Source: Escherichia coli (GTDB lineage Bacteria > Pseudomonadota > Gammaproteobacteria > Enterobacterales > Enterobacteriaceae). From it: a stretch of 64,000 bases of DNA. Every line of letters begins with the position of its first letter. Position 1 is the first letter of the stretch. The position numbers and the translations under genes are program-made. Positions 7,584 through 23,391 of this stretch are shown here, piece after piece. The notes under the pieces were generated by a model. The model was not told the origin of the DNA. It saw only the letters and a list, made by a program, of their open reading frames with translations, and searched no databases. The stretch is taken from NCBI RefSeq assembly GCF_003334355.1, contig NZ_QOWP01000007.1. One strand, given 5' to 3'.

Positions 7584-8879
7584 ATGAGAGAAGTTGAAAT
7601 GAAATATCCGACAGGCGTGGAAAACCATGGAGGGAAATTACGTATCTGGTTTGTTTATAAAGGCGTAAGAGTCAGGGAAAATCTGGGGGTTCCTGACACA
7701 GCAAAAAACAGGCGCGTTGCAGGTGAACTACGCGCCTCTGTTTGTTACGCAATAAAAACTGGTGTTTTCGACTATGCAAAACAGTTTCCCTCCTCACGCA
7801 ATCTGGAAAAATTTGGTGAGGCCCGACAAGATTTAACCATAAAAGAACTGGCTGAAAAATTTCTGGCACTGAAAGAAACTGAAGTCGCAAAAACATCACT
7901 CAACACATACCGTGCCGTCATCAAAAATATCCTGAGCATAATCGGTGAAAAAAATCTTGCCTCATCGATTAATAAAGAAAAATTACTGGAGGTTCGTAAA
8001 GAGCTACTGACTGGATACCAGATCCCCAAAAGTAACTATATTGTTACACAACCAGGGAGATCGGCTGTAACTGTAAATAATTACATGACAAATCTTAACG
8101 CCGTGTTCCAGTTTGGTGTTGATAACGGTTACTTGGCAGATAACCCGTTTAAGGGGATCTCGCCATTAAAGGAATCAAGAACCATTCCGGATCCTCTTTC
8201 GCGGGAGGAATTCATCCGTCTTATCGATGCGTGCAGAAATCAGCAAGCCAAAAATTTATGGTGTGTTTCTGTTTATACTGGCGTTCGCCCTGGTGAGCTG
8301 TGTGCACTTGGATGGGAGGACATAGATCTGAAAAATGGAACAATGATGATCAGGAGAAATTTAGCAAAAGACCGTTTCACGGTACCAAAAACACAGGCGA
8401 GAACCAATCGGGTCATTCATCTTATTAAGCCAGCAATCGACGCTCTCCGGAGTCAGATGACATTAACGAGACTGAGCAAAGAGCATATCATTGATGTTCA
8501 CCTCAGAGAGTATGGCAGAACAGAAAAACAAAAATGCACCTTTGTTTTTCAACCTGAAGTGTCAGCGAGAGTAAAAAATTATGGTGACCATTTTACCGTT
8601 GACTCAATAAGGCAGATGTGGGACGCAGCGATAAAACGTGCCGGACTCCGCCATCGAAAATCATATCAGTCGAGACATACTTATGCCTGCTGGTCGCTGA
8701 CAGCTGGTGCTAACCCGGCATTTATAGCAAACCAGATGGGCCATGCAGATGCGCAAATGGTATTTCAGGTATACGGAAAATGGATGTCTGAAAACAATAA
8801 TGCACAGGTAGCTTTGTTAAATACACAGTTAAGCGAGTTTGCCCCAACCATGCCCCATAACGACGCAATGAAAAATTAA
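7584..8879 (+). CDS. intQ: Prophage tyrosine integrase, intact
   Basis: 431-aa ORF; C-terminal catalytic region SRHTYACWSLTAGANPAFIANQMGHADAQMVFQVYGKW (H-x-x-R ... Y). Start may be the downstream MKYPTGV at 7599. Confidence 0.8.
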   Translation: MREVEMKYPTGVENHGGKLRIWFVYKGVRVRENLGVPDTAKNRRVAGELRASVCYAIKTGVFDYAKQFPSSRNLEKFGEARQDLTIKELAEKFLALKETEVAKTSLNTYRAVIKNILSIIGEKNLASSINKEKLLEVRKELLTGYQIPKSNYIVTQPGRSAVTVNNYMTNLNAVFQFGVDNGYLADNPFKGISPLKESRTIPDPLSREEFIRLIDACRNQQAKNLWCVSVYTGVRPGELCALGWEDIDLKNGTMMIRRNLAKDRFTVPKTQARTNRVIHLIKPAIDALRSQMTLTRLSKEHIIDVHLREYGRTEKQKCTFVFQPEVSARVKNYGDHFTVDSIRQMWDAAIKRAGLRHRKSYQSRHTYACWSLTAGANPAFIANQMGHADAQMVFQVYGKWMSENNNAQVALLNTQLSEFAPTMPHNDAMKN

Positions 8880-9066
8880 TTTAATATTTATCAAATAGTT
8901 AACACGTATGACTCTTGAAATCCATAAATTTAAGCGCAGTGCCCAGCCATCCCGATACTGCTGCTTTCACCAAATCCTTAGTGCTTCTTTCGTGTTTTTC
9001 TATTGTCATAATGGTTATCTCTAAAAAAGAGGTAAGATGCGTACTACTTACTCGCCGTTATTGGTA

Positions 9067-12918: not shown

Positions 12919-13629
12919 TTAATAATAATCGATCGTATTTTTGATGGTGTAAACCCGTTCGACGGCGGGTTTTACTCCTTCATCAACAATGATTAGCTGA
13001 CAGTCCACCGGATTAGCGTGACTGTCATATTCACAGCTCTGTTTTACATTACCAACCCGTTGATTATTCAGTAAAGTAACCGCTGTGTAATCTAATTTTT
13101 TGATCGGATCCGTTGATGGCGTGGCGCTGACAGATAATGTTTTGTCGTTACTTTTCGTGGTTTTACCCAGCGGATAACCCTGATCATCATAGCGATATTC
13201 CATCTGCATTTGTTTGCTGCTGGCTTTAATCACGAAGCCATTATCATCGGTTTCCCAACTCACCCCGGCAGAAGGTAATTCTGCTAGCTGGCATTTTCCC
13301 TGTAAACGTACTCTCTTCTCCAGCGTCTCGGCATCACGGTAATAATTGGCGTCCAGTACCAGAGCGACCACGGTATTATTTTCCAGATCCAGTAATTCGA
13401 GTGAATCAAAACAGCCTTCTTCCGACAAAGTCCCAGAAACACGTTTCGTCACTTCACCTTGCTCATCCATTAATGTCTGAGTGAAATCTTTTACCGGACC
13501 ACGCAGCGGATCAAAATCGAATTCATTAGAGAAACTGGCCATCTCAGGGGTAAATGAAAGTGTTACCTCTGTGCGGTCACATCCTGTGAGGAATATCGCG
13601 AGTAAGCATGGTAGTAATTTGTATTTCAC
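12919..13629 (-). CDS. ynfC: Lipoprotein YnfC (UPF0257)
   Basis: Lipobox LLAIFLTGC; GTG start giving 236 aa (the ATG-extended ORF in the track runs to 13665). Confidence 0.8.
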   Translation of the reverse strand: MKYKLLPCLLAIFLTGCDRTEVTLSFTPEMASFSNEFDFDPLRGPVKDFTQTLMDEQGEVTKRVSGTLSEEGCFDSLELLDLENNTVVALVLDANYYRDAETLEKRVRLQGKCQLAELPSAGVSWETDDNGFVIKASSKQMQMEYRYDDQGYPLGKTTKSNDKTLSVSATPSTDPIKKLDYTAVTLLNNQRVGNVKQSCEYDSHANPVDCQLIIVDEGVKPAVERVYTIKNTIDYY

Positions 13630-13736
13630 AACAGTCACCAGAGAGTAGAGATGATTCTCAATCATAGTAGCAAATACAGTACTTTACACGTTAAATGCTA
13701 TGCTTAAAGAAGTTATCTTCGCGTAAGGAGCTTATG

Positions 13737-14042
13737 ATGAAACTCTCAACCTGCTGTGCCGCGCTTCTGCTCGCCCTCGCCTCACCCGCGGTACTCGCCG
13801 CGCCGGGATCCTGTGAGCGCATACAGAGCGATATATCACAGCGCATTATCAATAATGGCGTACCCGAAAGCAGCTTCACGTTAAGTATTGTACCCAATGA
13901 CCAGGTTGATCAGCCTGATTCCCAGGTCGTCGGCCATTGCGCTAATGATACGCATAAAATTCTCTATACCCGCACCACCAGCGGTAACGTCTCTGCTCCC
14001 GCGCAGTCTAGCCAGGATGGCGCGCCTGCCGAACCGCAGTAA
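13737..14042 (+). CDS. ynfD: Secreted protein YnfD
   Basis: 101 aa MKLSTCCAALLLALASPAVLAAPGSCERIQ. Confidence 0.8.
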   Translation: MKLSTCCAALLLALASPAVLAAPGSCERIQSDISQRIINNGVPESSFTLSIVPNDQVDQPDSQVVGHCANDTHKILYTRTTSGNVSAPAQSSQDGAPAEPQ

Positions 14043-14058
14043 CACATTATCGACTGAA

Positions 14059-14085
14059 CGCCGGATATGACAAATCCGGCGATTT
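14059..14085 (+). terminator. Hairpin CGCCGGAT-N7-ATCCGGCG after ynfD
   Basis: Perfect 8-bp stem followed by ATTTG; weak U-tract. Confidence 0.45.
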
Positions 14086-14127
14086 GAACATACAACATAA
14101 TCCCACCTTATTACTCATACCCTTCTA

Positions 14128-14141
14128 TTGATATGGATTAA
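14128..14141. promoter_or_regulatory. Candidate FNR box (TTGAT-ATGG-ATTAA) upstream of ynfE
   Basis: 9 of 10 match to TTGAT-N4-ATCAA about 105 bp upstream of the ynfE ATG; the ynfEFGH operon is known to be anaerobically expressed. Confidence 0.35.
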
Positions 14142-14240
14142 TAATTCTTAACCCAAAATGGGTAGACTCCCTCTATTGTTAGCGCGCTAAATATTCAATA
14201 TATAAACTTTTATATAACGATAAAGAACAGGGAGTGAGTT

Positions 14241-16667
14241 ATGTCCAAAAATGAACGAATGGTGGGCATCAGCCGCAGAACACTCGTTAAATCTACCGCG
14301 ATAGGTTCTCTGGCGCTGGCTGCAGGCGGTTTTTCTTTGCCGTTTACCCTGCGCAATGCAGCAGCATCGGTACAACAGGCCCGCGAAAAAGTGGTCTGGG
14401 GTGCCTGTTCCGTCAACTGTGGTAGCCGCTGTGCACTTCGTCTACATGTTAAAGATAATGAAGTGACCTGGGTGGAAACTGACAATACCGGCAGCGATGA
14501 GTACGGCAACCATCAGGTACGCGCCTGTTTGCGCGGTCGCTCCATCCGCCGGCGTATTAATCATCCCGATCGCTTGAATTACCCAATGAAACGCGTGGGC
14601 AAACGCGGCGAAGGCAAATTCGAACGGATTAGCTGGGATGAAGCCCTGGATACTATCGCCAGTAGCCTGAAGAAAACCGTCGAACAATATGGCAATGAGG
14701 CTGTATATATTCAGTACTCTTCGGGGATCGTTGGCGGCAATATGACCCGCTCTTCGCCATCAGCCTCGGCGGTCAAACGCCTGATGAACTGCTACGGCGG
14801 TTCACTCAACCAGTATGGCTCCTACAGCACTGCGCAAATTTCCTGTGCCATGCCCTACACCTACGGCAGTAATGATGGCAACAGCACCACGGATATTGAA
14901 AACAGCAAGCTGGTCGTGATGTTTGGTAACAACCCGGCAGAAACCCGCATGAGCGGTGGTGGCATCACTTATCTTCTTGAAAAAGCGCGCGAGAAATCGA
15001 ACGCCAAAATGATTGTTATCGATCCGCGATATACCGATACGGCTGCCGGTCGTGAAGACGAATGGCTCCCTATTCGCCCGGGCACCGATGCCGCGCTGGT
15101 TGCGGGTATTGCCTGGGTATTGATTAACGAAAATCTCGTTGATCAACCTTTTCTCGATAAATACTGCGTCGGCTATGACGAAAAAACCTTACCCGCAGAT
15201 GCACCCAAAAATGGTCACTATAAAGCCTATATTCTTGGTGAAGGTGACGATAAAACAGCGAAAACGCCGCAGTGGGCTTCGCAAATTACCGGTATCCCGG
15301 AGGACCGTATCATCAAACTGGCGCGTGAAATTGGCACAGCAAAACCCGCTTATATCTGCCAGGGCTGGGGGCCACAACGCCAGGCAAACGGCGAACTGAC
15401 TGCACGCGCTATTGCTATGTTACCTATTTTGACGGGCAATGTCGGCATCAGCGGCGGAAATAGTGGCGCGCGTGAATCGACCTATACCATTACCATAGAA
15501 CGCCTGCCGGTGCTGGATAATCCGGTCAAAACGTCAATCTCCTGCTTCAGCTGGACAGATGCTATCGATCATGGTCCGCAAATGACGGCAATCCGCGACG
15601 GCGTCCGCGGCAAAGATAAACTGGATGTGCCCATTAAGTTCATCTGGAACTACGCGGGAAATACCCTCGTTAATCAGCATTCTGACATCAACAAAACGCA
15701 TGAAATTCTGCAGGACGAATCGAAATGCGAAATGATTGTGGTCATCGAAAACTTTATGACCTCATCGGCAAAATATGCCGACATTCTGCTGCCAGACCTG
15801 ATGACCGTTGAGCAGGAAGATATTATTCCTAACGACTACGCCGGTAACATGGGATATCTCATTTTCCTCCAGCCTGTCACCAGCGAAAAATTCGAACGCA
15901 AACCGATTTACTGGATCCTGAGTGAAGTCGCGAAACGTCTTGGACCTGACGTCTATCAAAAGTTCACAGAAGGTCGCACGCAGGAACAATGGTTACAACA
16001 TCTGTACGCCAAAATGCTTGCCAAAGATCCGGCGTTACCGTCTTACGACGAACTGAAAAAAATGGGTATCTATAAGCGTAAAGATCCCAATGGCCATTTT
16101 GTCGCCTACAAAGCATTTCGTGACGACCCCGAGGCAAATCCACTTAAAACGCCTTCCGGTAAGATTGAAATTTATTCCAGCAGGCTGGCGGAAATTGCCC
16201 GTACCTGGGAACTGGAAAAAGATGAAGTGATAAGCCCATTGCCAGTTTATGCCTCAACCTTTGAAGGCTGGAACTCCCCTGAACGTAGAACCTTCCCACT
16301 GCAACTGTTTGGTTTCCATTACAAATCCCGTACTCACTCGACCTACGGCAATATTGATCTCCTGAAGGCTGCCTGCCGTCAGGAGGTGTGGATCAACCCT
16401 ATAGATGCGCAGAAACGTGGGATTGCCAACGGCGATATGGTGCGGGTGTTTAACCATCGTGGCGAAGTTCGGCTACCAGCCAAAGTAACACCACGTATTC
16501 TCCCTGGAGTTAGCGCTATGGGCCAGGGAGCCTGGCACGAGGCCAATATGTCTGGCGATAAAATCGACCATGGCGGCTGTGTGAATACGCTAACCACTCT
16601 GCGCCCTTCACCACTGGCGAAGGGAAACCCGCAGCACACTAATCTGGTCGAGATCGAAAAAATATAA
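14241..16667 (+). CDS. ynfE: Tat-exported molybdoenzyme, DMSO-reductase family catalytic subunit (selenate reductase)
   Basis: 808 aa; twin-arginine signal SRRTLVKSTAIGSLALAAG; Cys cluster CSVNCGSRC. Confidence 0.92.
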   Translation: MSKNERMVGISRRTLVKSTAIGSLALAAGGFSLPFTLRNAAASVQQAREKVVWGACSVNCGSRCALRLHVKDNEVTWVETDNTGSDEYGNHQVRACLRGRSIRRRINHPDRLNYPMKRVGKRGEGKFERISWDEALDTIASSLKKTVEQYGNEAVYIQYSSGIVGGNMTRSSPSASAVKRLMNCYGGSLNQYGSYSTAQISCAMPYTYGSNDGNSTTDIENSKLVVMFGNNPAETRMSGGGITYLLEKAREKSNAKMIVIDPRYTDTAAGREDEWLPIRPGTDAALVAGIAWVLINENLVDQPFLDKYCVGYDEKTLPADAPKNGHYKAYILGEGDDKTAKTPQWASQITGIPEDRIIKLAREIGTAKPAYICQGWGPQRQANGELTARAIAMLPILTGNVGISGGNSGARESTYTITIERLPVLDNPVKTSISCFSWTDAIDHGPQMTAIRDGVRGKDKLDVPIKFIWNYAGNTLVNQHSDINKTHEILQDESKCEMIVVIENFMTSSAKYADILLPDLMTVEQEDIIPNDYAGNMGYLIFLQPVTSEKFERKPIYWILSEVAKRLGPDVYQKFTEGRTQEQWLQHLYAKMLAKDPALPSYDELKKMGIYKRKDPNGHFVAYKAFRDDPEANPLKTPSGKIEIYSSRLAEIARTWELEKDEVISPLPVYASTFEGWNSPERRTFPLQLFGFHYKSRTHSTYGNIDLLKAACRQEVWINPIDAQKRGIANGDMVRVFNHRGEVRLPAKVTPRILPGVSAMGQGAWHEANMSGDKIDHGGCVNTLTTLRPSPLAKGNPQHTNLVEIEKI

Positions 16668-16727
16668 CCCACGACAACCATAAATTCTGGCATGACATTT
16701 TGTTTGAAAAGCAATAAGTGAGTAATG

Positions 16728-19151
16728 ATGAAAATCCATACCACAGAGGCGCTCATGAAGGCTGAAATCAGCCGTAGAAGTCTGATGAAAACCTCCGCAC
16801 TTGGCAGTCTTGCGCTGGCAAGCAGTGCTTTCACTCTGCCATTTTCCCAAATGGTCCGGGCGGCAGAGGCTCCGGTAGAAGAGAAAGCGGTCTGGAGTTC
16901 CTGCACCGTTAACTGCGGGAGCCGCTGTCTGTTACGTTTGCATGTGAAAGATGACACCGTGTACTGGGTGGAGTCTGATACGACAGGTGACGACGTCTAC
17001 GGTAATCATCAGGTTCGAGCGTGTTTACGCGGGCGCTCTATCCGCCGACGGATGAATCATCCTGATAGGTTGAAATATCCCATGAAGCGCGTCGGCAAGC
17101 GCGGTGAAGGTAAATTTGAACGGATAAGTTGGGACGAAGCCCTGGATACCATCAGTGATAATCTTCGGCGGATCCTGAAAGATTACGGCAATGAGGCTGT
17201 ACATGTCCTGTACGGAACAGGCGTAGATGGCGGAAACATCACCAACTCAAACGTCCCGTACCGTCTGATGAACTCTTGCGGTGGTTTTCTCAGTCGCTAT
17301 GGCAGCTACAGTACCGCACAGATCAGTGCCGCAATGAGTTATATGTTCGGTGCCAATGATGGCAACAGCCCGGATGATATCGCCAATACGAAACTGGTCG
17401 TTATGTTCGGAAATAACCCGGCAGAAACGCGGATGAGCGGCGGTGGTGTCACTTACTACGTCGAGCAAGCCCGCGAACGTTCAAACGCACGCGTGATCGT
17501 CATCGATCCACGTTATAACGACACTGCTGCCGGGCGTGAAGATGAATGGCTGCCCATTCGCCCTGGCACCGATGGCGCACTGGCCTGTGCGATTGCCTGG
17601 GTACTGATTACTGAAAACATGGTCGATCAGCCATTTCTCGACAAATATTGTGTTGGTTACGATGAAAAAACGCTGCCCGCCAACGCACCACGTAACGCGC
17701 ATTATAAAGCCTATATTCTGGGCGAAGGGCCTGACGGCATAGCTAAAACGCCGGAATGGGCAGCAAAAATCACCAGCATCCCGGCAGAAAAAATTATCCA
17801 GTTGGCACGAGAGATCGGTTCAGCAAAACCTGCTTATATTTGTCAGGGTTGGGGGCCACAACGACATTCCAACGGCGAGCAAACATCCCGCGCTATTGCC
17901 ATGCTTTCCGTTCTCACCGGCAACGTCGGCATAAACGGCGGCAACTCAGGCGTACGCGAAGGTAGCTGGGATCTGGGGGTAGAATGGTTCCCGATGCTCG
18001 AGAATCCTGTTAAAACGCAGATTTCCGTCTTTACATGGACAGATGCCATCGACCATGGTACGGAAATGACCGCGACCCGTGATGGTGTTCGTGGAAAAGA
18101 AAAACTGGATGTCCCCATCAAGTTTTTATGGTGCTACGCCAGTAACACATTGATCAATCAACATGGCGACATCAATCACACCCATGAGGTGCTTCAGGAT
18201 GACAGCAAGTGCGAGATGATTGTTGGCATTGACCACTTCATGACGGCCTCGGCTAAGTATTGCGATATCCTGTTGCCCGACCTGATGCCAACAGAGCAAG
18301 AAGACCTTATCTCTCATGAATCTGCAGGGAATATGGGCTATGTGATCCTCGCCCAACCCGCAACCTCAGCAAAATTTGAACGCAAACCCATCTACTGGAT
18401 GCTGAGTGAAGTCGCCAAACGCTTAGGACCAGACGTTTATCAAACCTTTACTGAAGGTCGCAGTCAGCATGAATGGATCAAATATCTCCATGCGAAAACG
18501 AAGGAACGTAACCCTGAGATGCCCGACTACGAGGAGATGAAAACGACCGGGATCTTTAAGAAAAAATGCCCGGAAGAACACTACGTCGCTTTCCGCGCAT
18601 TCCGTGAAGATCCACAGGCAAACCCGTTGAAAACACCTTCGGGGAAAATCGAAATTTATTCTGAACGACTGGCGAAGATTGCAGATACCTGGGAATTGAA
18701 AAAAGATGAAATTATTCATCCCCTTCCTGCGTATACCCCAGGTTTTGATGGCTGGGACGATCCCCTGCGGAAAACCTATCCACTGCAGTTAACGGGCTTC
18801 CATTACAAAGCGCGTACCCACTCCAGCTACGGCAATATTGATGTGTTACAGCAGGCCTGCCCACAAGAGGTGTGGATCAACCCCATTGATGCTCAGGCAC
18901 GCGGTATCCGTCATGGCGATACCGTGCGGGTATTTAACAATAATGGAGAAATGCTGATTGCCGCAAAAGTGACTCCGCGTATTCTGCCTGGCGTTACCGC
19001 CATCGGGCAAGGTGCGTGGCTTAAAGCGGATATGTTTGGTGACCGGGTCGATCACGGCGGCAGTATCAATATTCTGACCTCTCACCGCCCTTCACCGCTG
19101 GCAAAGGGAAACCCGTCGCACAGCAATCTTGTCCAGATCGAAAAGGTTTAA
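16728..19151 (+). CDS. ynfF: Tat-exported molybdoenzyme, DmsA paralog
   Basis: 807 aa; SRRSLMKTSALGSLALA; tandem paralog of ynfE. Confidence 0.92.
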   Translation: MKIHTTEALMKAEISRRSLMKTSALGSLALASSAFTLPFSQMVRAAEAPVEEKAVWSSCTVNCGSRCLLRLHVKDDTVYWVESDTTGDDVYGNHQVRACLRGRSIRRRMNHPDRLKYPMKRVGKRGEGKFERISWDEALDTISDNLRRILKDYGNEAVHVLYGTGVDGGNITNSNVPYRLMNSCGGFLSRYGSYSTAQISAAMSYMFGANDGNSPDDIANTKLVVMFGNNPAETRMSGGGVTYYVEQARERSNARVIVIDPRYNDTAAGREDEWLPIRPGTDGALACAIAWVLITENMVDQPFLDKYCVGYDEKTLPANAPRNAHYKAYILGEGPDGIAKTPEWAAKITSIPAEKIIQLAREIGSAKPAYICQGWGPQRHSNGEQTSRAIAMLSVLTGNVGINGGNSGVREGSWDLGVEWFPMLENPVKTQISVFTWTDAIDHGTEMTATRDGVRGKEKLDVPIKFLWCYASNTLINQHGDINHTHEVLQDDSKCEMIVGIDHFMTASAKYCDILLPDLMPTEQEDLISHESAGNMGYVILAQPATSAKFERKPIYWMLSEVAKRLGPDVYQTFTEGRSQHEWIKYLHAKTKERNPEMPDYEEMKTTGIFKKKCPEEHYVAFRAFREDPQANPLKTPSGKIEIYSERLAKIADTWELKKDEIIHPLPAYTPGFDGWDDPLRKTYPLQLTGFHYKARTHSSYGNIDVLQQACPQEVWINPIDAQARGIRHGDTVRVFNNNGEMLIAAKVTPRILPGVTAIGQGAWLKADMFGDRVDHGGSINILTSHRPSPLAKGNPSHSNLVQIEKV

Positions 19152-19161
19152 GGAGTAGCCC

Positions 19162-19779
19162 ATGACCACACAATATGGATTTTTTATCGATTCCAGCCGC
19201 TGTACTGGCTGTAAAACCTGCGAACTGGCGTGCAAAGATTTTAAAGATCTTGGCCCGGAAGTCAGTTTCCGCCGTATTTATGAATACGCTGGCGGCGACT
19301 GGCAGGAAGATAATGGCGTCTGGCACCAGAACGTGTTCGCTTATTATCTCTCCATCTCCTGTAACCATTGCGATGACCCCGCATGTACAAAAGTCTGCCC
19401 CAGCGGCGCAATGCATAAGCGTGAAGATGGCTTTGTGGTGGTTGATGAAGATGTTTGTATCGGCTGCCGCTACTGCCACATGGCTTGTCCGTACGGCGCG
19501 CCACAGTACAATGCTGAAAAAGGGCACATGACGAAGTGCGATGGTTGTTATTCGCGCGTCGCCGAGGGGAAACAACCCATATGTGTCGAATCCTGCCCGC
19601 TGCGTGCACTTGAGTTCGGTCCAATTGAAGAGCTGCGCCAGAAGCACGGCACTCTTGCTGCCGTCGCGCCACTGCCGCGCGCGCATTTCACAAAACCCAA
19701 TATCGTTATCAAACCTAACGCCAACAGCCGCCCGACCGGCGATACCACTGGTTATCTGGCTAATCCGGAGGAAGTGTAA
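19162..19779 (+). CDS. ynfG: DMSO-reductase-type 4Fe-4S ferredoxin subunit
   Basis: 205 aa with four Cys clusters (CTGCKTCELACK, CNHCDDPACTKVCP, CIGCRYCHMACP, CDGC...). Confidence 0.92.
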   Translation: MTTQYGFFIDSSRCTGCKTCELACKDFKDLGPEVSFRRIYEYAGGDWQEDNGVWHQNVFAYYLSISCNHCDDPACTKVCPSGAMHKREDGFVVVDEDVCIGCRYCHMACPYGAPQYNAEKGHMTKCDGCYSRVAEGKQPICVESCPLRALEFGPIEELRQKHGTLAAVAPLPRAHFTKPNIVIKPNANSRPTGDTTGYLANPEEV

Positions 19780-19780
19780 A

Positions 19781-20635
19781 ATGGGAAATGGATGGCATGA
19801 GTGGCCACTGGTTATCTTTACCGTATTGGGTCAATGCGTAGTAGGCGCGCTGATTGTTAGCGGAATTGGCTGGTTCGCCGCCAAAAATGACGCAGACCGT
19901 CAGCGTATTGTCCGTGGCATGTTTTTCCTCTGGCTGTTGATGGGCGTCGGGTTTATTGCCTCTGTCATGCACCTGGGATCGCCACTGCGGGCGTTTAACT
20001 CGCTGAATCGAATCGGAGCTTCTGGTCTGAGTAACGAGATTGCTGCCGGTTCCATATTTTTTGCCGTTGGCGGATTATGGTGGCTGGTGGCAGTCATCGG
20101 TAAAATGCCGCAAGCGTTGGGGAAACTCTGGTTACTTTTCAGCATGGCGCTCGGCGTCATTTTCGTCTGGATGATGACCTGCGTGTATCAAATCGACACC
20201 GTGCCAACCTGGCATAACGGTTACACTACGCTGGCTTTCTTCCTGACGGTATTGTTGAGCGGTCCAATACTTGCTGCCGCAATTCTGCGGGCAGCTCGCG
20301 TTACATTTAATACCACACCATTTGCCATCATTAGCGTTCTGGCGCTGATCGCTTGTGCCGGGGTGATTGTGCTGCAAGGTTTGTCTCTGGCGTCTATTCA
20401 CTCATCCGTGCAACAAGCCAGCGCACTGGTACCAGATTACGCCTCCTTACAGGTCTGGCGTGTGGTATTGTTATGCGCAGGTCTTGGATGCTGGCTTTGC
20501 CCGCTCATTCGTCGCCGTGAACCTCACGTTGCCGGACTTATTCTGGGGCTAATCCTCATACTTGGCGGTGAGATGATCGGGCGTGTGCTCTTTTATGGCC
20601 TGCACATGACAGTAGGAATGGCTATTGCAGGTTAA
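19781..20635 (+). CDS. ynfH: DMSO-reductase-type membrane anchor subunit
   Basis: 284-aa polytopic ORF starting MGNGWHEWPLVIFTVLGQ 2 nt after ynfG stop. Confidence 0.9.
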   Translation: MGNGWHEWPLVIFTVLGQCVVGALIVSGIGWFAAKNDADRQRIVRGMFFLWLLMGVGFIASVMHLGSPLRAFNSLNRIGASGLSNEIAAGSIFFAVGGLWWLVAVIGKMPQALGKLWLLFSMALGVIFVWMMTCVYQIDTVPTWHNGYTTLAFFLTVLLSGPILAAAILRAARVTFNTTPFAIISVLALIACAGVIVLQGLSLASIHSSVQQASALVPDYASLQVWRVVLLCAGLGCWLCPLIRRREPHVAGLILGLILILGGEMIGRVLFYGLHMTVGMAIAG

Positions 20636-20677
20636 CAAATTGGTGCGGGGCAACCCGCACATTTCAGGATGTTAGGA

Positions 20678-21292
20678 ATGACCCATTTTTCACAGCAAGA
20701 TAATTTTTCTGTCGCGGCGCGCGTGTTGGGCGCGCTGTTTTATTACGCTCCAGAGAGTGCGGAAGCCGCACCTCTGGTTGCGGTACTCACCAGTGACGGC
20801 TGGGAAACTCAGTGGCCTCTACCAGAAGCGTCATTAGCGCCGCTGGTGACGGCTTTTCAGACACAGTGTGAAGAGACTCACGCCCAGGCCTGGCAGCGTT
20901 TGTTTGTCGGCCCGTGGGCACTGCCGTCTCCGCCGTGGGGGTCGGTCTGGCTGGATCGCGAATCTGTGCTGTTTGGCGATTCAACATTGGCACTTCGTCA
21001 GTGGATGCGCGAGAAAGGCATTCAGTTTGAAATGAAGCAAAACGAACCGGAAGATCATTTTGGTTCACTGCTGTTGATGGCTGCGTGGTTGGCGGAGAAT
21101 GGTCGCCAGACAGAATGCGAAGAATTGCTGGCATGGCACCTTTTTCCGTGGTCAACACGTTTTCTTGATGTTTTTATCGAAAAAGCAGAACACCCTTTCT
21201 ACCGTGCACTGGGTGAACTGGCTCGCTTAACGCTGGCGCAATGGCAATCACAACTGTTAATTCCTGTCGCGGTTAAACCGCTGTTTCGATAG
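20678..21292 (+). CDS. dmsD: Tat proofreading chaperone DmsD
   Basis: 204 aa MTHFSQQDNFSVAARVLGALFYYAPES. Confidence 0.9.
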   Translation: MTHFSQQDNFSVAARVLGALFYYAPESAEAAPLVAVLTSDGWETQWPLPEASLAPLVTAFQTQCEETHAQAWQRLFVGPWALPSPPWGSVWLDRESVLFGDSTLALRQWMREKGIQFEMKQNEPEDHFGSLLLMAAWLAENGRQTECEELLAWHLFPWSTRFLDVFIEKAEHPFYRALGELARLTLAQWQSQLLIPVAVKPLFR

Positions 21293-21486
21293 GATCACCG
21301 TAATATTGCCGGATGGTGACGATTACGCGCAATCCGGCAATAATAGGTTACAGTGTCACGTTTTTTTATCTCTTAAAGCACGCACTGCTTTTGCGGCTGG
21401 CCTCTTTTGCCGCAAAATAGTCGCCCGTGTTTCATTGCCCATTTCTGCTCATGCATCATCTACACATCTATCCGGATCTGCGCACT

Positions 21487-22743
21487 ATGTTCCGCCGTCT
21501 GCTTATCGCAACAGTCGTCGGTATTCTCGCGGCCTTTGCCGTTGCCGGGTTTCGTCATGCGATGCTGCTACTGGAGTGGTTGTTCCTCAATAATGACTCC
21601 GGCAGTCTGGTCAATGCAGCGACAAACCTTTCCCCCTGGCGACGGTTGCTAACTCCGGCGCTCGGCGGACTGGCGGCGGGTTTGTTGCTGATGGGCTGGC
21701 AGAAATTTACCCAACAACGCCCTCATGCGCCGACCGATTACATGGAAGCGTTGCAAACCGATGGACAGTTCGATTACGCAGCAAGCCTGGTTAAATCGCT
21801 TGCCTCTCTGCTGGTAGTAACCAGCGGCAGTGCAATTGGTCGCGAAGGTGCGATGATTCTTTTAGCTGCCCTTGCCGCCTCCTGTTTTGCCCAACGTTTT
21901 ACGCCACGCCAGGAGTGGAAATTATGGATCGCCTGTGGGGCCGCGGCGGGAATGGCTGCGGCCTATCGTGCCCCGCTTGCTGGCAGTTTATTTATAGCCG
22001 AAGTGCTGTTTGGCACTATGATGTTGGCCTCTCTCGGCCCGGTGATTATTTCCGCCGTCGTGGCATTGCTGGTTAGCAATCTGATTAATCATAGCGACGC
22101 GTTACTCTACAACGTACAACTCTCAGTGACGGTTCAGGCTCGTGACTATGCGCTGATTATCAGTACAGGTGTGCTGGCAGGTCTGTGCGGACCACTGTTG
22201 TTAACGTTAATGAACGCCTGTCATCGTGGATTTGTGAGTCTCAAACTTGCGCCGCCCTGGCAACTGGCACTAGGCGGGTTGATCGTGGGTCTGCTTTCCC
22301 TGTTCACACCTGCAGTGTGGGGCAACGGCTATAGCACCGTACAATCCTTTTTAACCGCCCCACCACTGTTAATGATCATTGCCGGGATCTTCCTTTGTAA
22401 ACTGTGTGCCGTGCTGGCGAGTAGCGGTTCCGGCGCACCCGGTGGGGTCTTTACACCGACGCTATTTATCGGTCTTGCCATTGGCATGTTGTATGGTCGT
22501 AGCCTGGGATTATGGTTCCCTGATGGCGAAGAAATTACACTTTTACTCGGATTGACCGGGATGGCGACACTGTTGGCGGCGACCACGCACGCGCCGATTA
22601 TGTCGACGTTGATGATATGTGAAATGACCGGGGAGTATCAGCTACTCCCCGGTTTATTGATTGCCTGCGTAATTGCGTCGGTAATTTCGCGGACGTTACA
22701 CCGTGACTCTATCTACCGCCAGCACACTGCGCAGCATAGCTAA
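21487..22743 (+). CDS. clcB: Voltage-gated ClC-type chloride channel ClcB
   Basis: 418 aa from [17 protein letters not shown]; motifs GSAIGREG and GAPGGVFTP. Confidence 0.88.
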
Positions 22744-23391
22744 GCGGATGTATTGCCCCAGTTCACGCTGTTCGGCGCGCGGCAGATAAGGCAGTTCACC
22801 AATGAGCGGTGCCGGAAGTTTTTTACCCAGCACATCAATGATTTCCGCATAATGCGCCAGTCCTGGGTTGATTCGGTTAGCCACCCAGCCAATGAGCGGC
22901 AGCCCGTCGTTGGCGATCGCCTGAGCTGTTAGCAGTGCATGGTTAATGCAACCTTCCTGAATACCGACAACCATCAACACCGGCAGTTGTTCCTGCACTA
23001 CCCATTCAGAGAGTGGACGCAAATCATTCATCAGACTGCGCCAGCCGCCAGTCCCTTCTACCACGACATGATCGACTTTTTCGGTCAGGTTTGCCAGGCC
23101 GTTTGAAATGAGGGTGTAATTGATTGGGCAACTGTGCGCCACGCTACTTTCTTCTTCGCTTAACGCGATAGGATTAACTGCTTCATAAGGCAGTTCGATG
23201 GTTGAAACACTCTGCAACACCAGGGCATCTTTATTACGCAGCCCTTCGGGTGTCTCTTTGCTCCCCTTCGCTACGGGTTTATATCCCGCAACCGTTTTTC
23301 CCTGGGAGGCTAACGCTTGTAGCAATGCGCGGGAAACCACCGTTTTCCCTACAGAAGTGTCTGTACCGGTAATAAAGAAACGCTTCAGCAT
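22696..23391 (-). CDS. ynfK: Dethiobiotin-synthetase paralog BioD2 (YnfK)
   Basis: 231 aa [27 protein letters not shown] (P-loop); 3' end overlaps clcB 3' end by 48 nt. Confidence 0.88.

What the first reader, a model, noticed from the sequence alone, without database searches (positions are those of the whole stretch)
14241..19151. ynfE and ynfF are tandem paralogous molybdoenzyme genes
The two adjacent 807/808-aa ORFs are collinear and share long identical stretches (for example NHQVRACLRGRSIRRR, KLVVMFGNNPAETRMSGGG, AKPAYICQGWGPQR), each with its own Tat signal. They are followed by a single set of Fe-S, anchor and chaperone genes (ynfG, ynfH, dmsD). Such tandem duplicates are recombination-prone and could differ in substrate.
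Basis: seen in the sequence. Interest (0 to 1): 0.25.

Follow-up and report, generated by a model that had tools for sequence, protein, structure and literature searches.

The report
E. coli ynfE–ynfF paralogue pair
These are the well-known E. coli genes ynfE and ynfF, two old sister genes for the catalytic subunit of a selenate/tellurate reductase that share one set of helper genes; the pair is ordinary and already described, although public genomes show it occasionally collapses into a single hybrid gene.

Summary
Window 14241-16667 is ynfE (808 aa) and 16728-19151 is ynfF (807 aa; 808 from an ATG at 16725). The proteins are 71% identical and collinear. Each has a twin-arginine signal, and one set of ynfG, ynfH and dmsD follows. 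This is the textbook E. coli ynfEFGH-dmsD operon, a paralogue of dmsABC, so the finding is already known.

What the tools add:
- The two genes are old paralogues, not a recent duplicate. DNA identity is 69.8%, third codon positions are saturated (47.6%), and the longest shared DNA run is 17 nt. YnfE-type and YnfF-type genes form separate clades. Several genera have only the E type, and others carry the F type in its own operon.
- "Recombination-prone" is still partly right. Public genomes hold at least six E. coli and at least four Salmonella in-register YnfE(N)::YnfF(C) hybrids. Where I checked the DNA, each is a single gene that has lost one 2,484-bp unit. Three of four mapped crossovers lie on 9-14-nt shared runs. 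They are rare: 10 of 5,426 complete genomes.
- ynfF decays often; 546 of 5,426 genomes, including ST131 strain EC958, share one deletion allele.
- A difference in substrate remains untested. YnfF differs at an active-site-adjacent Arg/Asn position and the loop after it.

The parts
14128..14141 (+). FNR-like palindrome TTGATATGGATTAA (1 mismatch to TTGAT-N4-ATCAA), about 100 bp upstream of the ynfE start, in the ynfD-ynfE spacer
   Evidence: This is a consensus match only: 53 such matches in the window against 39 expected by chance. That the operon is anaerobically induced is predicted in the literature (PMC5203670).
14241..16667 (+). ynfE, 808 aa: Tat-exported Mo-bisMGD/[4Fe-4S] catalytic subunit. 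Features: Tat motif S11-R12-R13; FS0 cysteines C56, C60, C64, C96; predicted Mo-ligand S196 in YSTAQ; R170 at the position of DmsA R149 (old numbering).
   Evidence: NF041885 YnfE scores 1795 bits (cut-off 1675). RefSeq annotation. Invariant residues in the alignment with DmsA. Ser aligned to DorA S147 through the YnfF-DorA alignment.
16668..16727 (+). 60-nt ynfE-ynfF spacer carrying the ynfF translation-initiation region. A -60..+24 ynfF-lacZ fusion is repressed by the sRNA RyhB. This spacer is lost in every E::F hybrid.
   Evidence: Coordinates. RyhB result from PMC4666370. No promoter-like or terminator-like site was found in the spacer.
16728..19151 (+). ynfF, 807 aa (808 from the ATG at 16725): second catalytic subunit, 71% identical to YnfE. 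Has the same Cys and Ser ligands. Has N173 instead of Arg, and a loop 4 residues shorter than in YnfE (5 shorter than in DmsA) directly after it.
   Evidence: NF041884 YnfF scores 1772 bits (cut-off 1650)..
19162..19779 (+). ynfG, 205 aa: four-cluster Fe-S electron-transfer subunit shared by YnfE and YnfF. 94% identical to DmsB.
   Evidence: TIGR02951, 264.8 bits; RefSeq annotation.
19781..20635 (+). ynfH, 284 aa: DmsC-type membrane anchor / quinol oxidase subunit. It is of the E-type lineage: 67-68% identical to the anchors of single-ynfE operons, against 51-56% to the anchors of F-type operons.
   Evidence: RefSeq annotation; PF04976 in orthologous loci.
20678..21292 (+). dmsD (ynfI), 204 aa: Tat proofreading chaperone that binds the signal peptides of DmsA, YnfE and YnfF.
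   Evidence: NF008632, 347 bits; RefSeq annotation; PMC5203670 and PMC10609526.
14931..14944 (+). AACCCGGCAGAAAC, a 14-nt run shared with ynfF 17415-17428. Crossover site of the in-register hybrid in complete genomes JCC-EE 7 and CP137696 (YnfE aa ~230).
15618..15628 (+). AAACTGGATGT, an 11-nt run shared with ynfF 18102-18112. Crossover site of hybrids P0062/70/75/84 (YnfE aa 459-463).
15795..15803 (+). GACCTGATG, a 9-nt run shared with ynfF 18279-18287. Crossover site of hybrid P0022 (YnfE aa 518-522).
17442..18021 (+). 580-bp segment of ynfF deleted, together with 18796-19069 (274 bp), in a widespread pseudogene allele. The exact junction is present in 546 of 5,426 complete genomes, including ST131 strain EC958.

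Best explanation
Window 14241-21292 is the E. coli ynfEFGH-dmsD operon, a paralogue of dmsABC.

How it works: ynfE and ynfF encode two alternative catalytic subunits of the DMSO-reductase family (Mo-bisMGD plus one [4Fe-4S] cluster). Each is made with its own twin-arginine signal peptide. DmsD proofreads them, and they are exported folded by Tat, probably together with the Fe-S subunit YnfG. At the periplasmic face they dock on the quinol-oxidising anchor YnfH. Electrons flow from menaquinol through YnfH and YnfG to the Mo centre, which reduces selenate or tellurate. Both proteins are described as selenate/tellurate reductase isoenzymes. YnfE is the main contributor in Salmonella.

What is shown here: gene identities, gene order, ligand residues and signal motifs.

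What comes from the literature: subunit roles, DmsD dependence, selenate/tellurate reduction, and RyhB repression of ynfF translation.

What is inferred here:
- The two genes are ancient paralogues of distinct E and F lineages. An F-type gene sits inside an E-type operon.
- The pair is kept by selection in most E. coli.
- The genes differ mainly in the funnel loop next to the Mo ligand and in post-transcriptional control.
- The pair is occasionally collapsed, by recombination between diverged copies at short shared runs, into one in-register E(N)::F(C) hybrid gene.
For: Identity.

Conserved ligands: four Cys, Tyr-Ser in YSTAQ aligned to DorA Y146-S147, and Tyr aligned to DorA Y114.

Ancient split:
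- DNA identity 69.8%, third-position identity 47.6%, uniform along the gene, no shared run above 17 nt.
- NJ tree with a YnfE clade at bootstrap 100 that includes the single-copy genes of Klebsiella, Enterobacter, Buttiauxella and others. YnfF falls in a different clade (bootstrap 72) with Providencia, Actinobacillus and Aeromonas proteins.
- Single-E operons and stand-alone F-type A-B-C(-D) operons.
- YnfH groups with the E-type anchors.

Maintenance: about 4,760 of 5,426 genomes keep the tested internal ynfF segment (17442-18021). YnfF is 92% conserved between E. coli and Salmonella, against 88% for YnfE.

Collapse:
- Clean single-breakpoint E-to-F mosaics.
- Native context ynfD-[one 808-aa gene]-ynfG in drafts and complete genomes.
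- Junctions on shared runs of 14, 11 and 9 nt, and one on an 8+1+1-nt near-match.
- No F-to-E mosaics, as expected for deletion between direct repeats.
Against: - Nothing contradicts the identity of the genes.
- The deep tree nodes have only moderate support (72%), from a distance method on 24 sequences. So 'F inserted into an E operon' cannot be separated from 'old in-situ duplication followed by loss in other genera'.
- No direct enzymology of separate YnfE and YnfF was available to read. Guymer 2009, Lubitz & Weiner 2003 and Fujita 2021 are not in the held library.
- ynfF is dispensable in a very successful clone (ST131), which weakens the claim that it has a function of its own.
- Hybrids known only from protein sequences (P0125-127 and all the Salmonella ones) were not checked at DNA level.
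Confidence: 0.9

Rival explanations
1. The pair is a recent tandem duplication whose copies are functionally redundant and are kept similar by ongoing gene conversion.
For: The genes are adjacent, in the same orientation, of the same length, and share long identical peptide runs. Both are called selenate reductase isoenzymes.
Against: Third-codon-position identity is 47.6%. Codon identity at conserved residues is about 0.4-0.5 in most 60-codon windows, with two overlapping windows at about 0.65, so there is no clear conversion tract. The longest shared DNA run is 17 nt. E and F are separate clades, and E orthologues in other genera are closer to E (85-88%) than F is (71%).
Confidence: 0.03
2. 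ynfF is a redundant copy on its way to being lost, and only ynfE matters.
For: 546 of 5,426 complete genomes, including ST131 EC958, carry the same frameshifting double deletion in ynfF with ynfE intact. Salmonella YnfF 'does not contribute greatly' to selenate reduction (PMC5203670). ynfE and ynfF are among the most often pseudogenised metabolic genes in E. coli (PMC13322260).
Against: The tested internal ynfF segment (17442-18021) is present in about 88% of complete genomes. YnfF is more conserved between E. coli and Salmonella (92%) than YnfE is (88%). It has its own RyhB control. ynfE is also disrupted in some strains: an integrase-bearing element inserted in it, IS1-associated loss, and partial deletions. 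Every in-register hybrid keeps the F-type C-terminal part.
Confidence: 0.2
3. ynfF did not arise by duplication at this locus. An F-type catalytic gene from a separate DmsABC-like operon was inserted between ynfE and ynfG, or two adjacent operons merged with loss of one B-C pair.
For: Klebsiella and Buttiauxella have the same flanking genes (ynfC, ynfD ... clcB, bioD, mlc) with only ynfE-ynfG-ynfH-dmsD. F-clade genes head complete operons in Pluralibacter, directly after dmsABC, and in Providencia. YnfH is of the E type.
Against: An old in-situ duplication followed by loss of ynfF in several genera gives the same present-day picture. No composition anomaly marks ynfF: GC is 0.49-0.53 across both genes. 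Deep tree support is moderate.
Confidence: 0.4

Closest known systems
E. coli K-12 / Salmonella ynfEFGH-dmsD (ynfEFGHI) selenate/tellurate reductase operon (Lubitz & Weiner 2003; Guymer et al. 2009; Fujita et al. 2021, as cited in PMC12096835, PMC5203670 and PMC10609526)
   Same: It is this operon. The DNA is 100.0% identical over window 13500-22800 to several E. coli genomes annotated with these gene names. The gene order and lengths are the same, and each protein passes its NCBIfam model. The 71% YnfE/YnfF identity equals the published Salmonella figure.
   Different: Nothing differs in the window itself. What I add is population variation seen in other genomes: hybrids, fusions and the ST131 ynfF pseudogene.
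E. coli DmsABC dimethyl sulfoxide reductase
   Same: Same three-subunit architecture and the same chaperone, DmsD. DmsA is 67-68% identical to YnfE and YnfF, with the same Cys group and the same Y-S-x-A-Q Mo-ligand motif. DmsB is 94% identical to YnfG.
   Different: The locus is separate (serS-dmsABC) and has one catalytic gene. DmsC is only 57% identical to YnfH. YnfE and YnfF score below the DmsA exception-model cut-off (1343 and 1318 bits against 1600).
Rhodobacter DorA / E. coli TorA soluble S-/N-oxide reductases (PDB 1eu1, 7l5i)
   Same: These are the closest solved structures (E about 1e-73 to 1e-76). The Ser ligand (DorA S147) and Tyr114 align with conserved residues of YnfE and YnfF.
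   Different: They have no FS0 [4Fe-4S] domain and no B/C partners. DorA Trp116 is Ser in YnfE and Thr in YnfF and DmsA.
Hybrid genes formed by unequal crossover between diverged tandem paralogues (for example human CYP11B1/CYP11B2; PMC8750845 surfaced)
   Same: The outcome is the same: the 5' part of the upstream gene is joined in register to the 3' part of the downstream gene, with loss of one repeat unit.
   Different: Here the parents are only about 70% identical at DNA level and the crossovers sit on runs of 14 nt or less. That is well below the roughly 25-nt tracts usually considered necessary for efficient RecA recombination (the figure is from my own knowledge, not tested here).

Membership tests
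YnfE (NCBIfam NF041885, selenate/tellurate reductase subunit YnfE) | Whole-protein score above the curated cut-off of 1675 bits | tested here: met
   1795 bits for window 14241-16664. The YnfF protein scores 1479.8 bits against this model and fails.
YnfF (NCBIfam NF041884, selenate/tellurate reductase subunit YnfF) | Whole-protein score above the curated cut-off of 1650 bits | tested here: met
   1772 bits for window 16725-19148. The YnfE protein scores 1474.5 bits against this model and fails.
DmsA/YnfE/YnfF subfamily (TIGR02166) of the DMSO reductase family | Twin-arginine signal peptide at the N-terminus | tested here: met
   S-R-R-T-L-V-K in YnfE and S-R-R-S-L-M-K in YnfF; S, R, R, L and K are invariant with DmsA.
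DmsA/YnfE/YnfF subfamily (TIGR02166) of the DMSO reductase family | N-terminal Cys group for the FS0 [4Fe-4S] cluster (C-x3-C-x3-C ... C) | tested here: met
   YnfE C56, C60, C64 and C96 are invariant across YnfE, YnfF and DmsA. PF04879 is present in the precomputed domains.
DmsA/YnfE/YnfF subfamily (TIGR02166) of the DMSO reductase family | Serine ligand to molybdenum | tested here: met
   YnfE S196 in YGSYSTAQIS is conserved in YnfF and DmsA. In the YnfF-DorA alignment the equivalent YnfF Ser aligns to DorA S147 in D-Y-S-T-A. That DorA S147 and DmsA S176 are the Mo ligands is from my own knowledge.
DmsA/YnfE/YnfF subfamily (TIGR02166) of the DMSO reductase family | Binds Mo-bisMGD and reduces selenate/tellurate (or S-/N-oxides) | not testable with these tools
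   Literature only: a delta-ynfEF E. coli strain cannot reduce selenate (PMC12724226).
ynfEFGH-dmsD operon | Gene order A-A'-B-C-D on one strand with short spacers | tested here: met
   Spacers are 60, 10, 1 and 42 nt. NCBIfam identifies YnfG and DmsD. No terminator-like site lies between ynfE and ynfG on the + strand outside coding sequence.
Recent tandem duplicate (homogeneous direct repeat) | High DNA identity, or long identical DNA tracts between the copies | tested here: not met
   69.8% nucleotide identity, third positions 47.6%, longest exact run 17 nt. Direct-repeat families are only 68-77% identical.

The most novel reading that the evidence does not exclude
The most novel reading not excluded is this. 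Recombination between ynfE and ynfF, which are only about 70% identical at DNA level, is a recurrent natural process in both Escherichia and Salmonella. The resulting in-register YnfE(N)::YnfF(C) hybrids would be working enzymes, not dead genes. Their breakpoints span aa ~230-522; all keep the E-type signal peptide, FS0 and Mo-ligand region, and all lose the RyhB-controlled ynfF leader. If so, they form a ready-made natural domain-swap series for mapping which part of the protein sets substrate preference and regulation in DmsA-type molybdoenzymes. I found no paper describing these hybrids, but my literature searches for them were weak.
Probability: 0.35. Interest if true: 0.35.

Novelty: already known. 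Interest (0 to 1): 0.15.

Why it matters
As submitted, the finding restates a textbook operon and matters little.

The added observations have modest practical value:
- Annotation pipelines label in-register hybrids either as a generic 'DmsA/YnfE/YnfF family' protein or simply as ynfF. Gene-content tables therefore mis-score them.
- In the ST131 reference strain EC958, ynfF is a frameshifted pseudogene. Expression data for 'ynfF' in that strain (PMC12096835) therefore come from a dead gene.
- The pair gives a clear bacterial example of paralogue collapse by crossover at 9-14-nt shared runs between copies only about 70% identical.

Tried and rejected
1. **Gene conversion between ynfE and ynfF in the window.** Rejected. 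Codon identity at conserved residues is about 0.4-0.5 in most 60-codon windows. There is a weak bump (0.65) at codons 661-750 that I did not test formally and do not consider meaningful across 26 windows.
2. **The common ynfF deletion allele as a product of E/F recombination.** Rejected. ynfE is intact, both deletions are internal to ynfF, and the junctions have no microhomology.
3. **Junction probes for the two commonest out-of-register fusions.** These were P0017 (2,070-bp deletion) and P0007 (1,470-bp deletion). Neither junction is in any of the 5,426 complete RefSeq genomes. They exist in draft or other assemblies.
4. **Coverage as a discriminator for hybrids using a whole-hybrid probe.** This failed because megablast extended through the divergent half. 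I used identity bands and the row listing instead.
5. **Gene conversion between ynfG and dmsB.** The 94% protein identity exceeds the identity to YnfG orthologues, which suggested it. Rejected: 80.9% DNA identity with third positions at 50.5%.
6. **A solved structure of DmsA, YnfE or YnfF to map the active site.** None exists in the PDB copy; the best match is DorA 1eu1. I did not run structure prediction because the tool returns no coordinates to measure distances.
7. **Reading the primary functional papers.** Guymer 2009, Lubitz & Weiner 2003 and Fujita 2021 are not held.
8. **Two literature searches were badly designed and uninformative**. The statement that DmsA T148, R149, A178 and Q179 affect substrate specificity rests on my memory of Simala-Grant & Weiner 1998 and is unverified.
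9. **Rfam scan.** Nothing in the ynf region; only DicF at 4073-4124.
Full report
**1. Observation**

The window has two adjacent + strand ORFs, 14241-16667 and 16725-19151, each 808 codons from the first ATG. RefSeq starts the second at 16728, giving 807 aa. BLASTP aligns them end to end: 566/801 identical (71%), 85% positives, 9 gap positions, E = 0.

The longest identical run is 26 aa. Both N-termini carry S-R-R-x-L-x-K twin-arginine motifs. A single ynfG (19162-19779), ynfH (19781-20635) and dmsD (20678-21292) follow.

**2. Identity**

Window 13500-22800 matches 5,421 of 5,426 complete E. coli genomes. Several match at 100.0% identity, and there the genes are annotated ynfE, ynfF, ynfG, ynfH, dmsD and clcB.

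Each catalytic protein passes its own NCBIfam exception model and fails its sister's and DmsA's:
- YnfE scores 1795 bits against a cut-off of 1675.
- YnfF scores 1772 bits against a cut-off of 1650.

The literature describes the operon as a dmsABC paralogue encoding a Tat-exported, DmsD-dependent selenate/tellurate reductase, with YnfE and YnfF as paralogous isoenzymes. It gives the same 71% identity for Salmonella (PMC5203670, PMC12724226, PMC12096835, PMC10609526). The finding is therefore already known.

**3. Anatomy and likely mechanism**

A three-way alignment with K-12 DmsA (67-68% identity) shows several invariant features:
- the four FS0 cysteines (YnfE C56, C60, C64, C96);
- the Y-S-x-A-Q motif;
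- the Tat motif.

In HMMER's alignment of YnfF to Rhodobacter DorA (1eu1), the motif's Ser aligns to DorA S147 and a conserved Tyr aligns to DorA Y114.

An FNR-like palindrome lies about 100 bp upstream of ynfE at 14128-14141. It is a consensus match only. No terminator or promoter consensus lies in the 60-nt ynfE-ynfF spacer. RyhB represses translation of ynfF through its -60..+24 region, and also represses dmsA. ynfE was not reported as a RyhB target (PMC4666370).

The model has three parts:
- Two alternative catalytic subunits share YnfG, YnfH and DmsD.
- Electrons pass from quinol through YnfH and YnfG to the Mo centre.
- The paralogues differ in post-transcriptional control and possibly in substrate.

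**4. Are they 'tandem duplicates'?**

At DNA level the copies are 69.8% identical. Third-position identity is 47.6% and roughly uniform along the gene. The longest exact shared run is 17 nt. The repeat finder sees only 68-77% direct repeats, spaced 2,484 or 2,496 bp apart. There is no sign of recent duplication or conversion.

Context in other genera:
- Salmonella has the same E-F-G-H-D arrangement.
- A Klebsiella sp. and Buttiauxella have, in the same neighbourhood, only one ynfE-type gene followed by ynfG-ynfH-dmsD.
- Enterobacter roggenkampii has ynfE followed directly by dmsD.
- YnfF-clade genes head complete operons of their own in Pluralibacter (directly after dmsABC) and in Providencia.

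A neighbour-joining tree (794 ungapped columns, 100 bootstraps) gives three groups:
- a YnfE clade (bootstrap 100) containing all the single-copy genes;
- a YnfF-containing clade (bootstrap 72) that reaches Providencia, Actinobacillus and Aeromonas;
- a DmsA branch.

E. coli YnfH is 67-68% identical to the anchors of E-type operons and 51-56% to F-type anchors.

So the E/F split predates the Enterobacteriaceae genera sampled. Today an F-type gene sits in an E-type operon. Whether that came from insertion or merger, or from an old duplication with later losses, is not resolved.

**5. Divergent residues**

Forty positions are fixed in ten YnfE-clade proteins, fixed in four strict YnfF proteins, and differ between the two sets.
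- The one closest to the Mo ligand is YnfE R170 / YnfF N173 / DmsA R178. DmsA R178 is R149 in the old DmsA numbering, 27 residues before the ligand Ser.
- It is followed by a loop 4 residues shorter in YnfF than in YnfE, and 5 shorter than in DmsA.
- The stretch around YnfE aa 151-210 is the least conserved part of the mature protein, at 55% identity.
- A second cluster of nine diagnostic positions lies at aa 501-542.
- At the DorA W116 position YnfE has Ser, while YnfF and DmsA have Thr.

These differences are compatible with different substrate preferences but prove nothing. That DmsA R149 and T148 influence specificity is from my memory of the mutagenesis literature and could not be verified.

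**6. Is the pair recombination-prone?**

The DNA alone suggests not. Public genomes say otherwise.

*In-register hybrids.* Protein searches with YnfE and YnfF returned 808-aa E. coli proteins about 86% identical to both parents. At the 233-234 positions where YnfE and YnfF differ, these are clean single-breakpoint mosaics: E-type at the N-terminus and F-type at the C-terminus.
- E. coli has six distinct breakpoint intervals: YnfE aa ~230, 344-347, 366-381, 382-386, 459-463 and 518-522.
- Salmonella, judged against Salmonella parents, has five intervals (269-280, 280-288, 311-319, 329-340, 340-350). I count these as at least four.
- No F-to-E mosaic was found. That is what deletion between direct repeats predicts.

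*DNA context.* Where I fetched DNA, the locus reads ynfD-[one hybrid gene]-ynfG-ynfH-dmsD. This holds for draft contigs L006, L007 and L008 and for the complete genomes ECONIH4 and JCC-EE 7.

*Junctions.* The crossovers lie on shared runs of 14 nt (AACCCGGCAGAAAC), 11 nt (AAACTGGATGT) and 9 nt (GACCTGATG), and on one 8+1+1-nt near-match.

*Frequency.* Among the 5,426 complete genomes, 10 carry an intact in-register hybrid, in two breakpoint classes. Four more (O145 ×3, O111:H8) carry ynfE 5'-IS3-ynfF 3' joined at homologous positions.

*Out-of-register variants.* In-frame fusions also exist:
- P0017, a 2,070-bp deletion, seen on 95 contigs.
- P0007, a 1,470-bp deletion, seen on 33 contigs.
- Seven other fusion lengths.
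- A 1,236-bp tandem duplication inside ynfE (P0001).

The three mapped at DNA level (P0017, P0007 and the duplication) have no junction microhomology. The two commonest junctions are absent from all complete RefSeq genomes.

*Conclusion.* An exactly in-register join is one of roughly 800 possible codon offsets. Yet in-register classes are about as numerous as out-of-register ones, so the in-register events must be guided by homology.

**7. Decay of the pair**

- 103 of 5,426 genomes have no ynfEF DNA.
- About 664 lack the ynfF segment 17442-18021.
- 546 share the exact junction of a 580-bp deletion, accompanied in the two loci I examined (AGR6128 and EC958, both with a 1,570-bp remnant) by a 274-bp deletion at 18796-19069. 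ynfE is intact in these.
- Carriers include strains labelled O25b:H4-ST131. The ST131 reference strain EC958 has the same 1,570-bp frameshifted remnant.
- A 2026 pangenome study independently lists ynfE and ynfF among the most often pseudogenised metabolic genes in E. coli (PMC13322260).
- Against simple redundancy, YnfF is more conserved between E. coli and Salmonella (92%) than YnfE is (88%).

**8. Verdict**

The feature is already known and of low interest. The tools add three things:
- The paralogues are ancient and not homogenised.
- They nonetheless recombine in register now and then, in two genera.
- ynfF is dead in a major pandemic clone.

Functional divergence remains an open experimental question.

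Noticed in passing
window 17442-18021 and 18796-19069 (ynfF); L002, L026: A frameshifting double deletion in ynfF (580 bp plus 274 bp, no junction microhomology) with ynfE intact. The 580-bp junction is in 546 of 5,426 complete E. coli genomes, including O25b:H4-ST131 strains and the reference strain EC958. The 2025 J Bacteriol study (PMC12096835) reported 'ynfF' expression in EC958, so it was measuring a pseudogene transcript.
   Followed up: yes
window ~15637 (inside ynfE); L003 (strain W60), also hit H71 (GPEC1405): In two apparently unrelated strains (human urine, China; chicken) the match to ynfEF starts at the same position, query base 1397. In W60 a site-specific integrase and phage-like genes (KilA-N) lie immediately upstream. 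An integrative element may use a site inside ynfE as its attachment site.
   Followed up: partly
L017 (O145 RM9154-C1), equivalent to window 15727 / 18206; also hits H155, H164, H165: Here the ynfE 5' part, an IS3-family element and the ynfF 3' part are joined at homologous positions of the two genes. The flanking triplets differ: E-type ATG on the left and F-type GTG on the right. This looks like recombination between two IS copies that had inserted at the equivalent site in each paralogue. The alternative is an IS landing exactly on a crossover point.
   Followed up: partly
L009 (P0017), L011 (P0007), L014 (P0001); window 15219-17288, ~16054-17523, 15071-16306: Out-of-register but in-frame structural variants: a 2,070-bp deletion (946-aa fusion, 95 contigs), a 1,470-bp deletion (1,146-aa fusion, 33 contigs, including the 5.0-Mb record CP024694.1) and a 1,236-bp tandem duplication inside ynfE. 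None has junction microhomology. Neither of the two deletion junctions is in the 5,426 complete RefSeq genomes; the duplication junction was not probed.
   Followed up: yes
L020 (Enterobacter roggenkampii CP174074.1): A YnfE orthologue (86% identical) is followed directly by dmsD, with no ynfG or ynfH. The catalytic subunit must borrow Fe-S and anchor subunits from elsewhere, or work differently. This may relate to the SrnA selenate reductase described for E. cloacae (PMC12724226).
   Followed up: no
window 19162-19779 (ynfG) versus L005 dmsB and L018 Salmonella ynfG: E. coli YnfG is 94% identical in protein to DmsB, more than to YnfG orthologues. Synonymous sites are saturated, so this is constraint and not conversion. 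Oddly, Salmonella ynfG is closer to E. coli dmsB (87.2% nt, third positions 64.6%) than to E. coli ynfG (81.9%, 52.4%). That could reflect dmsB-ynfG conversion in Salmonella.
   Followed up: partly
window 4073-4124 (+) and roughly 1-8900: A DicF sRNA (Rfam RF00039, 76.7 bits) and, by comparison with ATCC 8739, a Qin-like prophage end (dicA/dicC/dicB, ydfA-D, exonuclease, excisionase, integrase) abutting rspB. This part is only 98.8-99.2% identical to ATCC 8739, and the stretch 2451-2949 has no match there.
   Followed up: partly
window 16668-16751: The ynfE-ynfF spacer plus the first ynfF codons is the region shown to confer RyhB repression on ynfF (PMC4666370). Every E::F hybrid deletes it, so hybrids should escape this iron-sparing control.
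   Followed up: no
hits: One or two plasmid-borne matches to ynfEF sequence, and some genomes with 2-4 matching places. These could include extra copies or the reciprocal triplication product. I did not examine them.
   Followed up: no
P0166 (Salmonella, 818 aa, 64 contigs): A Salmonella protein about equally similar to YnfE (77%), YnfF (74%) and DmsA (76%) that groups with DmsA in the tree. It is probably an additional Salmonella DmsA-type paralogue and not a hybrid.
   Followed up: no
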